Origin: Magallana gigas
Lineage: Eukaryota
Direction: 5' to 3'
Assembly: GCF_963853765.1 (NCBI RefSeq)
Contig: NC_088861.1
Coordinates: 21,356,281-21,420,280 of the forward strand
DNA: 64,000 nucleotides
Shown: one piece after another, positions 3,574 to 42,411 of the stretch
How positions within the stretch are numbered: position 1 is the stretch's first letter
How the letters are laid out: each line of letters starts with the position of its first letter
Position numbers and translations under genes: made by a program
Notes under the pieces: model-generated
Databases searched by the model: none
What the model saw: only the letters and a program-made list of their open reading frames with translations
What the model was told of the DNA's origin: nothing

Positions 3574-3681
3574 TTACTGATTTTGTCCTACAAGACCACT
3601 GGCTGTGTCAAACAGATTGACAGGGCTGTTGCCATCAGTGATCAGAACGCTCTCCAATCCAAGGGCTTTCAACATATTTAC
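3574..3681 (-). CDS. MVP: Major vault protein (MVP), terminal coding exon ending in a TAA stop; encodes [35 protein letters not shown]
   Basis: Minus-strand acceptor ttttttttag|GTAAATATG in phase 0. The translation aligns with the human MVP C-terminus ([32 protein letters not shown]) recalled from memory. The stop is the reverse complement of 3574-3576. Confidence 0.7.
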
Positions 3682-3851
3682 CTAAAAAAATAATTGTTAT
3701 TTCAAACACAATTTTGCAGAAGTGATTAACACACATTTCAGTTTATGTCTGTAATAAATGCTTTTCCATGATGAGTTTACATGAACAGCATTTGTAATGG
3801 GAGTCTGATTCTTTTTCAAGTTTACATGGTGTTTAAAATAATTATAAAAAC

Positions 3852-5282
3852 AAGAGGCCCAGGGGCCACATCGCTCACCTGAGCAACAATTGCCTTAATT
3901 CTAAATCAAATTAGCATTTCAGTATCAAAATATCTTGACAACTAAGTACAGTATATCTTACTAAAACAAATTGAAAATCTGCCAATTTTTTCCATCTCTT
4001 TTTTTTTTGGTAAATACCAAGCCCCTTTTGTTATTCTACCTGTAAGAAGATTTTTCTCTATTCCTATGTACCCCCCCCCCCTCCAAAATTTCGTGGCCCC
4101 ACTTTTCTCTCAGGAATCATGGTTTCATCAAACTTAAATCTGCATAACCTGTGCTTTCACACTAAGTACTGAGTTTTGGACCGAAAACTTTCCCAGAATA
4201 TTTTTAAAGATTTTCTCTATATATTCCTATGTAAAAGTTCAAACCGCCATCAAAGCCCTGCCCTATCATTAGGGACTGATTTTGCACACTTGAATTTACA
4301 CTACCCGAGGATGCCTCTACACAAGTTTAAGCTTTTCTGGCCAACTAGTCTTTAAAAAGAAGATTTTTAAAGATTTTCTCTATATATCTATGTAAAAATT
4401 CATCCCCCATTGTGGCCTTACTGTACCCCTGGACTGTTATTTAAACAAACTTGAATCTATACGATCTGGGGATGCTTCAACTCAAATGTGGGCTTTCATG
4501 GCCTAATAGAAGATTTTTAAAGATTTTCTCTATGTATAAAAACTATCCCCCATTGTGGCCCCGCCCTACCCCCAGGTACCATGATTTGAACAGACTTGAA
4601 TCTACATTATCTGAGGATGGTTACACGCCAATTTGAGCTTTCTTGTTTTTGAGAAAAAGATTTTTAAAGATTTCCTCTAAATATTCCTATGTAAAACTTG
4701 ATCCCCCAATTGTGTCCCCACGCTACCCCCGGTGACCATGATTGTAACAAACTTAAAACTACACTATCTGAGGATGCTTCCACTCAAATATAAGCTTTCC
4801 TGGCCTGATAGTTTTTGAGAAGAAGATTTTTAAAGATTTCCTCTATAAATTCCTATGTTAAACTTGATCCCCCCTATTGTGGCCCCACCCTACCCACAGA
4901 GACCATGATTTGAACAAACTTGAATCTACACTACCTGAAGATGCTTCCATTTTAATTTGAGCTTTCCTGGCCTAATAGTTTTTGAGAAGAAGATTTTTGA
5001 AAGATTTTCTCTATATATTCATATGTAAAACTTGACCCTCCCCTGTGGCCCCTCCCTACCCGCGGTGACCATGATTTGAACAAATTTGAATCTACACTAC
5101 CTGAGAATGCCTCAACACAAGTTTAAGCTTTTCAGGCCGAATAGTTTTTGAGAAGAAGATTTTTGAAAAATACCAACAAATTTTCAATAATTTTCCGTGG
5201 CCCTTCATTTAAATAAACTGGAATCCCCTTTACCTAGTGGTGCTTTGTGCCAAATTTGGTTGAAATTTGCCCAGCGGTTCTT

Positions 5283-5313
<31 letters not shown>

Positions 5314-5336
5314 ACGACGACGACAACGACAGACAT

Positions 5337-5373
<37 letters not shown>

Positions 5374-5395
5374 TGGCTCAGGTGACCTAATAATG
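3852..5395 (+). mobile_element. Composite non-autonomous element (Helentron/HINE-like satellite carrier): head 3852-4190, a 160-bp satellite array 4190-5160, and a tail 5160-5395 ending aagctcacttgagcctttggctcaggtgacctaa
   Basis: The same head-array-tail architecture recurs at 25955-27915. Head-only and tail-only copies occur elsewhere. The tail carries a 6-bp-stem hairpin, tgagcc-ttt-ggctca. Confidence 0.6.
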
Positions 5396-5507
5396 GCATT
5401 ACCTTAAATATATATACTTCTAATGTACAGTGTAATGTTGTTTAGCTTTAATGCTTCTTATGGTTCTGAAAACTCCAGAGAAATGAAAAAATTATAATCA
5501 TTTTTAC

Positions 5508-40172: not shown

Positions 40173-40223
40173 CACACACACACATACATACATACACACA
40201 CACATACGAACACACACACGCAC
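40173..40223. repeat. CA-rich microsatellite (cacacacacacatacatacatacacacacacatacgaacacacacacgcac)
   Basis: Direct reading. Confidence 0.9.
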
Positions 40224-40639
40224 GGTAGCGATTTTATATCCCCTTCGCAACAAGTTGTGCGAAGGGATAATAAAGCATGCTATTGTTCTGAATACACAAC
40301 TGTTGCGTAGGTTACGTTCCCTTACTTAGATAAATACCACTGCTTGGTATGATATACAAAGAATTTGAAACAATATCATATCTTATCATAAAATTTTTGA
40401 AAATATAATATATGATATAATATTGTATCACATAAAACAATAGTGTATCATATCACACAATACTAGTATATAACTGGAATCATGTTAAATCTTTAACAAC
40501 AAACAAACCTATCAAGCAAGTTTAAGTGAGGTAGGAGTTTCCTTGGCAACAAATATCAAGCTCTGCATCTGAAGATACCTCTGCGATTCATTGATATTAA
40601 ATATCAACTTTGCAAGTTTGAAATAGTACTATTATCCAT

Positions 40640-41110
40640 AAAACATGTGACCTGTTCTATAAAATACTTAACCTCATCCAGCATCCAAAACCTATGGTTC
40701 ATATTCAGCATTCAAGCCTGTCAGGAGCATCAGTATCATAAGATGCACCATCTACGCAAGTTTGGTGAAGTTAGGACCAGTAATAACAAAGATATAATCA
40801 GCAGAGGGCACCTGCTCCAAAAACTTTACCAGCTCTGAAAACCTTAACCTCCTCCAGCATCCAAAACCTACAACTCAGATTCAGCATTCAAACCTGCTTG
40901 GTGCATCCGTACAATAAGACTCACCATAGATGCAAGTTTGGTGAGGTCAGGACCAGTAGTTAATTAGAAATTCCTATCAAATTAATTGGCCAAATGCAGC
41001 ATCCAAGTCTTTCAAGTCCATAAGTAGGTTCAGATGCATCATCCATGCAAGTTTGGTGAAGATAGGACAAATAAATAACTTAGATATAGGAGTTGCACCA
41101 AAAACTTTAA
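40640..41110 (+). repeat. Same ~145-bp satellite family as 21400-22200, in about 3 tandem units
   Basis: Direct sequence similarity: catccaaaacctatggttcatattcagcattcaagcctgtcaggagcatcagtatcataagatgcacc.... Confidence 0.7.
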
Positions 41111-41399
41111 CTAGGTTTAGACGCCAATGCCAGGGGGGTTTAGCATAAGCTCCCCCTGACTTTGTTTTGGTGAGCTAAAAACTAATTTCCACCAAATATT
41201 GTACACCGCTAATATGATATATTTACTGTATTTGGTCACGCCCATGTGTTCCTTGGAAAGAAAACGTCATACATTTCACAATTAAGATTCCCCTATTCCA
41301 AGAGTTGCTTGAAATCCAAATGCTAATAATTAGTCTTGTAGGCAAATGGTTCCAGAGATTTTATTATTTTTCTCCATATATAACTAGACTTTGACCCGT

Positions 41400-42070
41400 G
41401 CGTGCATGGGTTGACATTGCATGAGGAATCATGAATTGAACAAATTTGAACCATCCTACCTAAGAATGCTTCCACACAAGTTCAGCTTTTCTGCCCAACT
41501 GGTTCCTAAGAAGCAAATTTTTAAAGAGTTTTCTCTACATATATTCCATTGTAATCTGACACACACTGTGGCTCCACCCCACCCCACCCCAAGGATCATG
41601 ATTTGAACCTATAAATCTATACTGAATCCATATTAACTGAAGATGCTTCCACACAAGTTAAGCTTTTCTGGCCAACCGGTTTCGGTAAAAAACATTTTAA
41701 AATGTTCTCTCTATAGTATCTTATGTAAAAACATGACCCTATCCAACTCTACCCACAGGGATTATGATTAAGTGAGAATGCTATCACACCAGTACCAGCT
41801 TTTCTGGCTGATTGGTTATTGAGAAGATTTCTAAAGATTAACTCTTTGTATTCCTATGTGAAAATTTAACCACCAATTGTGGCCCCACCCTACCATGGGG
41901 GATCATGATTTGAAAAAATTTGAATCTACACTTCCTGAGGACGCTTCCACACAAGTTTCGTCTTTTCTGGTTTTTGAGAAAAAGATTTTTGAAATATACC
42001 AACAGATTTTCAATAATTCCTAACCCTCTCCCCTGGAATAAAGGGCGTGGCCCTTCATTTGAACAAACCT
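41400..42070 (+). repeat. Diverged 160-bp satellite units plus a tail-like fragment (41990-42070)
   Basis: Sequence similarity to the other arrays and to tail sequences (ttttcaataattcctaaccctctcccctggaataaagggcgtggcccttcatttgaacaaacc). Confidence 0.5.
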
Positions 42071-42329
42071 GAAGTTTCATCCATCTGTTAACCATCTATT
42101 AAAAATCCTGGCAAAAAAAAAATAGGCCAAAAAAATAAAGTAATATGTAAGAGACCGAACATCTGATTAAGAAACCATTTGAATACAATAGAGCATTCTG
42201 TAAAAGATGGGAGACCTTCATTAACTGAAATAGTAAATCTGCTAGTTACATGTATGGCATTGGCTTACCAATAATAACAGTATCAATCATGCAACTACAT
42301 CAACATAGTTTATTTCTTTTAATATTTAC

Positions 42330-42411
42330 CCATTCGTTTGCAAGCAAATCCAATAAAATCAGGGACAGAAAACAGCTTGCTTTTTTCTTCTTCTGTTCCA
42401 TTTAAGTCATA
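42330..42411 (-). CDS. MVP: MVP exon (82 nt) encoding [27 protein letters not shown](G)
   Basis: Acceptor ttttttttgcag|TATGAC and donor CGAATGG|gtaaat. The one-nucleotide overhang G joins GT of the 28310 exon to give Gly. It aligns with human [31 protein letters not shown]. Confidence 0.65.

What the first reader, a model, noticed from the sequence alone, without database searches (positions are those of the whole stretch)
3574..42411. Major vault protein gene whose 3' half alone spans about 39 kb because its introns have absorbed satellites, Helentron-like elements, retrotransposons and an antisense gene
Eight short exons totalling about 870 nt are spread over nearly 39 kb. All have canonical splice sites and, as far as I recall the human sequence, co-linear similarity to its C-terminal 330 residues. 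Single introns reach about 15.5 kb (7857 to 23405) and 14 kb (28310 to 42330). They contain whole mobile elements and a separate ORF on the opposite strand. More 5' exons should lie beyond 42411 but I could not find them by eye.
Basis: partly seen in the sequence, partly recalled or inferred. Interest (0 to 1): 0.5.

Follow-up and report, generated by a model that had tools for sequence, protein, structure and literature searches.

The report
Vault protein gene with transposon-bloated introns
The last eight exons of a mussel-like major vault protein gene are real and intact, but they are spread over 39 kb because mobile elements and satellite repeats have filled the introns, which is ordinary for a repeat-rich animal genome.

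Summary
On the minus strand, eight exons (82, 143, 101, 227, 65, 81, 81 and 108 nt; 888 nt with the stop) have AG/GT splice sites. They join into one 295-codon ORF that aligns with human MVP residues 556-851 (E 2e-84). The closest named relative is Mytilus galloprovincialis MVP (71% overall, 81-91% in the best exons). Exons B-E have exactly the Mytilus exon lengths. The corresponding Mytilus introns are 0.35-1.1 kb; here three of them are 14.0, 4.7 and 15.5 kb. About 62% of the span is identifiable repeat:
- non-autonomous Helentrons (HINEs) carrying Cg170/HindIII-type 166-bp satellite arrays;
- an intact DIRS-like tyrosine-recombinase retrotransposon;
- other tandem arrays;
- a truncated ISL2EU-type DNA transposon.

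27 of 28 family-invariant residues are kept, so the exons look selected. The 5' two-thirds of the gene is not in the window. A profile search that recovers 15 upstream exons at the Mytilus locus finds none in 42412-64000. Either the next intron exceeds 21.6 kb or this copy is truncated. This is an ordinary gene in a repeat-rich genome and of low interest.

The parts
42330..42411 (-). MVP exon A (82 nt; YDLNG...CKRMG, second half of the shoulder domain begins)
   Evidence: AG acceptor and GT donor. HMM E=1.8e-6. Homologous Mytilus exon is 79 nt with the same boundaries.
28168..28310 (-). MVP exon B (143 nt)
   Evidence: E=3.5e-16. Mytilus exon is also 143 nt.
23405..23505 (-). MVP exon C (101 nt)
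   Evidence: E=1.4e-11. 84-91% identical to Mytilus. Mytilus exon is 101 nt.
7639..7865 (-). MVP exon D (227 nt; start of cap-helix)
Evidence: E=5e-17. Mytilus exon is 227 nt.
7368..7432 (-). MVP exon E (65 nt)
   Evidence: Weak on its own (tblastn E=0.035). Same 65-nt length as the Mytilus exon, and it keeps the frame.
5808..5888 (-). MVP exon F (81 nt)
   Evidence: E=0.005.
5508..5588 (-). MVP exon G (81 nt)
   Evidence: E=3e-4.
3574..3681 (-). MVP exon H (105 nt coding + TAA; cap-ring region). AATAAA lies 260 nt downstream at 3314.
   Evidence: (E=3e-9).
3848..5393 (-). Complete HINE (non-autonomous Helentron) in intron 7. It has a 5' subTIR+IR hairpin at 5393-5355, a (GTCY)n microsatellite, a 166-bp Cg170-like array at 4195-5164, and a 3' subTIR near 3884-3873.
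25952..27918 (-). Complete HINE with a longer Cg170-like array, in intron 2
   Evidence: 87% and 83% identical to the intron-7 copy over its two halves.
24800..25720 (-). Partial HINE (5' part plus a few monomers and an expanded microsatellite), in intron 2
8105..8545 (-). Short array-less HINE derivative, in intron 3
28394..29124 (-). Old, diverged Cg170-like array (67-75% to the other copies), in intron 1 next to exon B
41424..42073 (-). Old, diverged Cg170-like array, in intron 1 next to exon A
29854..34508 (-). DIRS-like tyrosine-recombinase retrotransposon with three intact overlapping ORFs: 33177-34238 (no Pfam match), 31099-33168 (RT, plus a weak Dam-like match), and 30290-31498 (tyrosine recombinase). 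It has inverted terminal repeats.
   Evidence: Pfam RVT_1 1.4e-21, Phage_integrase 1.2e-11, Phage_int_SAM_1 2e-5. Inverted repeats 29905-29969/34441-34505, 30131-30173/34466-34508 and 29854-29941/30052-30139.
19088..21353 (+). Truncated ISL2EU-type (PIF/Harbinger-ISL2EU-Spy superfamily) DNA transposon.
9677..10769 (.). 437-bp tandem repeat (2.3-2.5 copies), in intron 3
11165..16109 (.). Complex nested tandem array. Units of about 295/590 bp carry the hairpin motif CTTCCGGTGACGACCGGAAGT, followed by 53-63-bp hairpin repeats at 15795-16109. Unclassified.
34648..37258 (.). Segment bounded by 158-nt direct repeats (98% identical). It contains a weak RNase H-like retroelement remnant at 35295-35495.
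   Evidence: No Pfam hit.
21395..22186 (.). Cluster of MITE-like inverted repeats, related to 40555-41088 in intron 1
42412..64000 (-). Sequence upstream of exon A with no detectable MVP exon. It is either part of an intron longer than 21.6 kb or sequence beyond a truncation point. It is filled by two further tyrosine-recombinase retroelements on the + strand (about 44.6-50.2 kb and 52.5-57 kb), HINE pieces and tandem repeats.

Best explanation
The region holds the last eight coding exons of a bivalve-type major vault protein gene on the minus strand. They encode the second half of the shoulder domain, the cap-helix coiled coil and the cap-ring. The exon structure is ancestral and shared with the mussel Mytilus. 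The introns have grown about ten-fold through successive insertions:
- non-autonomous Helentrons (HINEs) that carry Cg170/HindIII-type 166-bp satellite arrays;
- a young DIRS-like retrotransposon and older retroelement remnants;
- a fragment of an ISL2EU DNA transposon;
- other tandem arrays.

Splice signals and coding sequence have been kept by purifying selection, so the pre-mRNA is presumably spliced across the mobile elements. This is inferred, not shown. The 5' two-thirds of the gene (vault repeat domains and the first half of the shoulder) is not in the window. Most likely it lies beyond position 64000, across an intron longer than 21.6 kb.
For: Shown:
- One 295-codon ORF comes from eight segments with canonical AG/GT sites.
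- It matches human MVP residues 556-851 at E=2.4e-84 and Pfam MVP_shoulder positions 35-118.
- 27 of 28 columns invariant in 16 diverse MVPs are retained; the one change is F to Y.
- The closest named protein is Mytilus galloprovincialis MVP, at 71% over 210 aa.
- Mytilus exons are 79/143/101/227/65 nt against 82/143/101/227/65 here. Mytilus introns are 389/921/351/1075/551 bp against 14,019/4,662/15,539/206/1,479 here.
- The satellite is 80-84% identical to C. gigas CL1 arrays.
- HINE architecture is present. The subTIR motif occurs 13 times against 0.09 expected.
- DIRS-like domains and inverted repeats are present.
- The ISL2EU arrangement is conserved in L003 and in Mytilus L005.
- About 62% of the 38.8-kb span is identifiable repeat and 2.3% is coding.

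Inferred: some intron repeats are old, at 65-75% identity to their relatives. The exons therefore stayed intact over a long period of intron growth.
Against: - There is no expression or splicing evidence. No near-identical protein or transcript product was found in the protein collections.
- No exon for profile positions 1-543 is detectable in the 21.6 kb upstream. The same profile finds 15 upstream exons at E<0.02 at the Mytilus locus. A 5'-truncated copy therefore cannot be excluded.
- The protein is rather divergent: 56% to Lingula, where Lingula-human is 69%.
- The poly(A) signal is weak evidence in AT-rich DNA.
Confidence: 0.8

Rival explanations
1. The eight exons are a 5'-truncated partial copy of MVP. 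It could be a segmental-duplication remnant, or a gene broken by rearrangement or transposon-mediated deletion. It would then not be part of a functional full-length gene.
For: No MVP exon is detectable in the 21.6 kb upstream of exon A, although the method is sensitive (positive control). The Mytilus locus carries two MVP copies in inverted orientation, so MVP duplication or haplotig artefacts do occur in bivalve assemblies. No same-species MVP product is in the protein collections.
Against: The 295 codons contain no stop or frameshift, and all 14 internal splice sites plus the exon A acceptor are canonical. 27 of 28 invariant residues are kept, although old, 65-75% diverged repeats sit in the introns. 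A long-dead fragment should have decayed comparably. Neighbouring introns of 14 and 15.5 kb make a next intron above 21.6 kb unremarkable.
Confidence: 0.17
2. The arrangement is an assembly artefact. Repeats such as HINE arrays or DIRS copies caused mis-joins that inflated the apparent intron lengths, or separated the 3' exons from the rest of the gene.
For: The window is dense in multi-copy repeats at 80-99% identity, which are classic mis-assembly substrates. Nothing in the window tests contiguity.
Against: Exon order, strand and phases are perfectly co-linear with Mytilus and human MVP. Repeat copies in the window differ from one another by 10-35% and have distinct flanks, so they are not collapsed identical copies. 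The window contains no N runs.
Confidence: 0.03

Closest known systems
Mytilus galloprovincialis major vault protein gene (VDI74247.1/VDI74248.1, contig UYJE01009533.1)
   Same: It is the closest named protein: 71% identity over 210 aa and 81-91% in exons C and D. Exon boundaries and lengths are identical for four exons and differ by one codon for a fifth.
   Different: Mytilus introns in this part are 0.35-1.1 kb (3.4 kb from exon A to exon E) against up to 15.5 kb here (35 kb from A to E). The Mytilus intron before exon A is 1.4 kb, against more than 21.6 kb or absent here.
Human/rat major vault protein (PDB 11dr, 4V60/4HL8)
   Same: Co-linear alignment to residues 556-851, covering the shoulder C-terminal half, cap-helix and cap-ring, at E about 1e-84.
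   Different: About 51% identity. The protein ends a few residues after the conserved GL(V/L)G motif, without the long vertebrate C-terminal tail. The N-terminal repeat domains were not found in the window.
Cg_HINE non-autonomous Helentrons carrying Cg170/HindIII satellite repeats in Crassostrea gigas (PMC7492417); Pearl elements of bivalves
   Same: Monomers of about 166 bp are 80-84% identical to C. gigas CL1 arrays. The layout is the same: 5' subTIR plus complementary IR, a (GTCY)n microsatellite, a central tandem array and a 3' subTIR.
   Different: The flank sequences were not compared with the published consensus sequences. The 3' palindrome is only a 4-bp GGCC stem, no better than shuffles. 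No autonomous partner is in the window.
DIRS1-like tyrosine-recombinase retrotransposons
   Same: It has three overlapping ORFs with RT and a tyrosine recombinase, a weak Dam-like methyltransferase match, and inverted terminal repeats with an internal complementary region.
   Different: RNase H was not detected by Pfam in this copy. No phylogenetic placement within DIRS/Ngaro/PAT was made.
ISL2EU group of the PHIS (PIF/Harbinger-ISL2EU-Spy) DNA transposon superfamily (PMC4482050)
   Same: It has the two-gene unit of a DDE_Tnp_4 transposase plus a YqaJ-exonuclease-domain protein. An AT dinucleotide sits at the 5' junction in both copies. The family is multi-copy.
   Different: The window copy is truncated to the YqaJ gene plus 43 transposase codons, and it has a 24-aa deletion in the nuclease domain. 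The element start (AGACGAC...) does not begin with the usual GG. The THAP domain was not examined.

Membership tests
Major vault protein (MVP) | MVP shoulder domain (Pfam PF11978) | tested here: met
   E=5.6e-29, but only profile positions 35-118 of 118. The first third of the domain would be encoded upstream of exon A.
Major vault protein (MVP) | Cap-helix coiled coil and cap-ring co-linear with solved MVP structures | tested here: met
   Continuous alignment to human MVP 556-851 and rat MVP 556-851 at E about 1e-84. 27 of 28 invariant columns are kept.
Major vault protein (MVP) | N-terminal vault repeat domains (PF01505, PF17794-17796) | tested here: not met
   Not detectable anywhere in the window with tblastn (157 queries plus the Mytilus protein) or with a full-length profile. 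The profile finds them at the Mytilus locus. They may lie outside the window, so this limits the claim to 'the 3' part of an MVP gene'.
Major vault protein (MVP) | Orthologous exon-intron structure | tested here: met
   Exon lengths are 82/143/101/227/65 nt against Mytilus 79/143/101/227/65 nt, with the same phases. Intron positions differ from the Lingula model, apart from the last one.
Major vault protein (MVP) | Expression and assembly into vault particles | not testable with these tools
   No transcript or protein data for this species.
HINE (non-autonomous Helentron, Cg_HINE/Pearl type) | 5' subTIR followed within 1-12 nt by a complementary IR | tested here: met
   GGTCACCTGAGCC-AAA-GGCTCAAGTGAGC forms a hairpin of -10 to -12.3 kcal/mol, z -3.1 and -4.4. 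The motif is found 13 times against 0.09 expected.
HINE (non-autonomous Helentron, Cg_HINE/Pearl type) | Short microsatellite, typically (GTCY)n, in the left flank | tested here: met
   GTCCGATGTCTGTCGTTGTCGTCGTC (minus strand) lies next to the 5' hairpin. It is expanded at 25531-25720.
HINE (non-autonomous Helentron, Cg_HINE/Pearl type) | Central tandem repeats of the Cg170/HindIII family in fixed orientation | tested here: met
   166-bp arrays are 80-84% identical to C. gigas CL1 arrays.
HINE (non-autonomous Helentron, Cg_HINE/Pearl type) | 3' subTIR followed by a palindrome | tested here: inconclusive
   The 3' subTIR GCTCAGGTGAGC is present and is the exact reverse complement of the 5' motif. 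The palindrome GGCCCCTGGGCC gives only a 4-bp stem, z -0.35.
HINE (non-autonomous Helentron, Cg_HINE/Pearl type) | Insertion at T-rich/TT sites without target-site duplication | tested here: inconclusive
   Flanks are A/T-rich and no duplication is evident. Exact ends cannot be fixed without empty sites.
DIRS-like retrotransposon | Reverse transcriptase plus tyrosine recombinase, instead of a DDE integrase | tested here: met
   RVT_1 1.4e-21; Phage_integrase 1.2e-11; SAM-like N-domain 2.2e-5.
DIRS-like retrotransposon | Inverted terminal repeats / internal complementary region | tested here: met
   Three inverted-repeat pairs link 29854-30173 with 34441-34508 at 85-100% complementarity.
DIRS-like retrotransposon | RNase H and methyltransferase domains | tested here: inconclusive
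   There is only a sub-threshold Dam match (E=8e-4, 19.5 bits against a cut-off of 28.1). RNase H was seen by Pfam only weakly, and in the related copy at 46517-47308.
ISL2EU transposon (PHIS superfamily) | Second ORF with a YqaJ exonuclease domain | tested here: met
   PF09588 at E=2e-7 in the window ORF and 1.3e-9 in the full-length relative P0121. A SWIM-like CxC...CxH motif is visible.
ISL2EU transposon (PHIS superfamily) | DDE (DDE_Tnp_4) transposase in the same unit | tested here: met
   In L003 the match is E=5.8e-48. In Mytilus L005 it is 73.5% identical over 234 aa in the same tail-to-tail position. In the window only the last 43 codons remain.
ISL2EU transposon (PHIS superfamily) | AT target-site duplication and TIRs starting with GG | tested here: inconclusive
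   AT precedes the shared 5' end in both copies, but the end reads AGACGAC, not GG. The 3' end is missing in both copies.

The most novel reading that the evidence does not exclude
Every Helentron-derived (HINE/Cg170-like) piece from 3.8 kb to the window end, about 11 loci, lies in the same orientation, sense to MVP. The only opposite-oriented piece is downstream of the gene. If these are independent insertions, it points to orientation-selective insertion or retention of these rolling-circle elements inside a very long transcription unit. That unit would then extend beyond 64 kb, and MVP would be a gene of more than 60 kb. An orientation rule of this kind would bear on how satellite arrays are seeded inside bivalve genes.
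Probability: 0.12. Interest if true: 0.4.

Novelty: new member of a known kind. Interest (0 to 1): 0.12.

Why it matters
It matters little beyond annotation. It gives a clean gene model for the 3' part of MVP in an apparently unannotated bivalve-like genome. It is also a concrete example of roughly ten-fold intron expansion relative to Mytilus, driven by HINE/satellite, DIRS-like and ISL2EU insertions, with exon structure unchanged. It shows that an ORF inside an intron should be checked for transposon origin before it is called a nested gene. Gene finders for this genome must allow introns longer than 20 kb.

Tried and rejected
- Search for 5' exons in 42412-64000. I ran tblastn with a recalled human MVP, 120 homologues, 37 full-length representatives and the Mytilus protein. 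I also ran a profile HMM on all six-frame ORFs and a motif search for DHARL/SYNW. Only one weak generic vault-repeat-like hit appeared, at 58849-58700 (best tblastn E=0.015 among 37 queries, HMM E=1.9, with an in-frame stop). I rejected it as chance.
- Intron-position comparison with the Lingula MVP model. The positions mostly differ, so this was uninformative. Mytilus was the useful comparator.
- Exact look-up of the window's YqaJ ORF gave nothing on record.
- A text search for SRR25336277, to name the species, gave no paper.
- Rfam and tRNA scans of the whole window found nothing.
- Pfam on the remaining small ORFs of 34.5-41 kb and other unexplained intron stretches found nothing. My by-eye impression of a recombinase there is unsupported, apart from a weak RNase H-like match.
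- The spliced protein could not be handed to the representative search, because it is not an exact window sequence. Lingula P0003 was used instead.
- One search missed the best relatives (Mytilus, Corticium), which the exhaustive search recovered.
- No structure prediction was run; sequence evidence was already decisive.
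Full report
**Observation**

A tblastn with a recalled human MVP sequence, used only as a lead, placed six co-linear hits on the minus strand between 42.4 kb and 3.6 kb. Reading the minus strand around them gave eight segments with AG acceptors and GT donors:

| Exon | Coordinates | Length (nt) |
|---|---|---|
| A | 42411-42330 | 82 |
| B | 28310-28168 | 143 |
| C | 23505-23405 | 101 |
| D | 7865-7639 | 227 |
| E | 7432-7368 | 65 |
| F | 5888-5808 | 81 |
| G | 5588-5508 | 81 |
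| H | 3681-3574 | 108 (includes TAA) |

Joined, they form one 295-codon ORF of 888 nt. Searched against PDB sequences, the ORF aligns without breaks to human MVP residues 556-851 (E=2.4e-84) and to rat MVP. Pfam finds MVP_shoulder, profile positions 35-118 of 118.

The introns are 14,019, 4,662, 15,539, 206, 1,479, 219 and 1,826 bp.
- The acceptor of exon D is at 7865/7866.
- The piece is about the last third of the protein, not half.
- The total is 888 nt.

**Is it a real, selected gene part?**

Among 16 diverse MVPs (sponges, Lingula, sturgeon, human and others), 28 columns of this region are invariant. The window protein keeps 27 of them, and the one change is F to Y.

The word-indexed protein search gave at best 59% identity and missed the closest relatives. 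The exhaustive representative search, seeded with Lingula MVP, found them. These were Mytilus galloprovincialis MVP (VDI74248/VDI74247) at 71% over 210 aa, and Corticium candelabrum MVP at 62%.

I fetched the Mytilus locus and reconstructed its exons exactly. The comparison with the window is:

| | Exon lengths A-E (nt) | Introns between A-E (bp) | Span, exon A to exon E |
|---|---|---|---|
| Mytilus | 79, 143, 101, 227, 65 | 389, 921, 351, 1,075, 551 | 3.4 kb |
| Window | 82, 143, 101, 227, 65 | 14,019, 4,662, 15,539, 206, 1,479 | 35 kb |

The exon structure is the same, apart from one codon in exon A. In Lingula, the homologous 286 residues span about 2 kb.

**The missing 5' part**

The window extends 21.6 kb beyond exon A. 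No credible hit for anything N-terminal of exon A came from any of these searches:
- tblastn with 120 homologues reaching about 220 aa upstream;
- tblastn with 37 full-length MVPs;
- tblastn with the Mytilus protein at word size 2;
- a profile HMM of the 37 full-length proteins against every six-frame ORF of at least 12 aa;
- motif searches for the conserved DHARL/SYNW segment.

The HMM recovers seven of the eight known exons at E<=0.005. Its best other hit is 58810-58685 at E=1.9, a generic FTD...R...W vault-repeat-like string with an upstream in-frame stop. I treat that as chance.

As a positive control, the same HMM on the Mytilus locus recovers 15 small upstream exons at E<0.02. The 5' exons are therefore not in the window. 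Either the next intron exceeds 21.6 kb or this copy is truncated. The window cannot decide between these.

I favour the long intron for three reasons:
- Neighbouring introns already reach 14-15.5 kb.
- All splice signals and the ORF are intact.
- The introns contain old repeats, at 65-75% identity to their relatives, next to undecayed exons.

**What fills the introns**

About 24 kb of the 38.8-kb span (62%) is identifiable repeat, and 2.3% is coding.

1. Satellites in Helentron-type carriers.
   - TRF finds 166-bp arrays at 4195-5164 and 26304-27666. It also finds them outside the gene at 129-1831.
   - Two-monomer stretches are 80-84% identical to C. gigas CL1 arrays of the Cg170/HindIII family, as listed in the supplement of PMC7492417.
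   - Aligning the flanks of three copies defines the element ends.
   - Read on the minus strand, the element starts with GGTCACCTGAGCC-AAA-GGCTCAAGTGAGC. This is the subTIR plus its complementary IR, and it forms a hairpin with z of -3 to -4. A (GTCY)n microsatellite follows, then the tandem array. The element ends with the subTIR GCTCAGGTGAGC and a short GGCC palindrome.
   - This is the published Cg_HINE layout. The 3' palindrome is too weak to count as evidence.
   - The subTIR motif occurs 13 times in the window against 0.09 expected.
   - Copies inside the gene are 3848-5393 and 25952-27918 (complete), 24800-25720 (partial), 8105-8545 (array-less), and 28394-29124 and 41424-42073 (old arrays).
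   - No Rep/helicase ORF was seen among ORFs of at least 120 aa. All copies are therefore non-autonomous.

2. Retrotransposons.
   - On the minus strand, 29854-34508 carries three intact overlapping ORFs. Pfam matches are RVT_1 (1.4e-21), a sub-threshold Dam-like match, and Phage_integrase (1.2e-11) with its SAM-like N-domain.
   - Inverted repeats link the two ends. This is a DIRS-like tyrosine-recombinase retrotransposon, and probably a young one.
   - A segment at 34648-37258 is bounded by 98% identical 158-nt direct repeats. It holds only a weak RNase H-like remnant.
   - Upstream of exon A, two more elements of this class lie on the + strand, at 44.6-50.2 kb and about 52.5-57 kb.

3. The "antisense gene".
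   - The 484-aa ORF at 19281-20735 (+) has a SWIM-like zinc motif and a YqaJ nuclease domain.
   - It belongs to a 56-member cluster at 90% identity.
   - A Logan contig (L003) is 98-99% identical to window 19088-21353. There the sequence continues into a DDE_Tnp_4 transposase on the opposite strand.
   - The same tail-to-tail pair is present in Mytilus.
   - This is the two-ORF structure described for ISL2EU elements of the PIF/Harbinger-ISL2EU-Spy superfamily (PMC4482050).
   - The window copy has a 24-aa in-frame deletion in the nuclease domain and keeps only the last 43 transposase codons. It is a dead transposon fragment, not a nested host gene.

4. Other repeats.
   - A 437-bp tandem repeat lies at 9677-10769.
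   - A 3.9-kb complex array at 11165-15110 has about 295/590-bp units and a CCGGAAGT hairpin motif.
   - Hairpin minisatellites lie at 15795-16109.
   - MITE-like inverted-repeat clusters lie at 21395-22186 and 40555-41088.
   - All of these are unclassified.
   - Rfam and tRNA scans were empty.

**Source organism**

The source is not given.
- The MVP is closest to Mytilus and shares its exon structure.
- The Cg170/HindIII-type satellite sits in a HINE context.
- The ISL2EU relatives are from Mytilus.

It is not Mytilus or C. gigas themselves. MVP is 71% identical to Mytilus, and the satellite is 80-84% identical to C. gigas.

**Mechanism**

What is shown:
- conserved exons and splice sites;
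- introns enlarged by insertions of at least four classes of mobile or repetitive DNA of different ages.

What is inferred:
- The pre-mRNA is transcribed through these elements and spliced normally.
- The exons are under purifying selection.
- The gene continues upstream of the window.

**Novelty and score**

MVP, HINE/Cg170 elements, DIRS-like elements and ISL2EU are all described families. Transposon-driven intron expansion is commonplace in large invertebrate genomes. The locus is a new member (orthologue) of a known kind, and I score interest at 0.12.

The only mildly unusual point is the uniform sense orientation of all HINE-derived pieces from 3.8 to 64 kb. I did not follow it up.

Noticed in passing
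window 3848-64000 (HINE/Cg170-like loci) versus 1-132: About 11 HINE-derived pieces within and upstream of the gene all lie in one orientation, with the element 5'->3' on the minus strand (sense to MVP). The only oppositely oriented piece (1-132) is downstream of the gene. This could reflect selection within a transcription unit, local spread, or chance.
   Followed up: no
window 19088-21353; L003; L005 8001-11333: The intronic opposite-strand ORF is the YqaJ gene of an ISL2EU-type transposon. The YqaJ / DDE_Tnp_4 tail-to-tail pair is conserved in a Logan contig (98-99% DNA identity) and in Mytilus galloprovincialis (transposase 73.5% identical). The window copy is truncated and has a 24-aa deletion.
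   Followed up: yes
window 11165-16109: A complex nested tandem array has units of about 295/590 bp, with 13 copies of the hairpin motif CTTCCGGTGACGACCGGAAGT. It is followed by 53-63-bp repeats built on the palindrome GGTCTTCCGTTGGAAACGGAAGACC. TRF missed most of it because its copies are only about 60-85% alike. It is unclassified, possibly another Helitron-like carrier.
   Followed up: partly
window 44617-50219 and about 52500-57400 (+ strand): Two more tyrosine-recombinase retroelements lie upstream of exon A. One is related to the intronic DIRS-like element (36-42% aa) but is broken into several ORFs. The other is only distantly related (25-27% aa) and has no Pfam hits.
   Followed up: partly
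window 57315-57736, 58138-58570, 60843-61380: Further tandem repeats have periods of 43/88/130 bp, 161 bp and 171 bp. The 171-bp unit shares the GGCCCCACCCTA...GGGGTCATGA core with the Cg170-like monomer. 38855-39078 in intron 1 is related to the 161-bp array.
   Followed up: no
L004 (Mytilus galloprovincialis UYJE01009533.1): The Mytilus locus carries two MVP copies in inverted orientation with identical per-exon HMM scores, which indicates a duplication or a haplotig. The Mytilus model and the locus stretch examined lack the otherwise conserved shoulder segment VETxDHARL..SYNWHF, and the model's 3' end reads through an intron.
   Followed up: partly
window 58849-58700 (- strand): A short string, NFTDLSAIHRNHHTRWLL, resembles the generic vault-repeat motif and is hit by eight MVP queries at different repeats (best E=0.015; HMM E=1.9). 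An in-frame stop lies just upstream. It was judged to be chance, but it is the only MVP-like trace upstream of exon A.
   Followed up: yes
tool behaviour, versus 36/59: The word-indexed protein search returned no hit longer than 515 aa. It missed the two closest relatives (Mytilus 71%, Corticium 62%), which the exhaustive representative search found. Absence from the first search is therefore weak evidence.
   Followed up: yes
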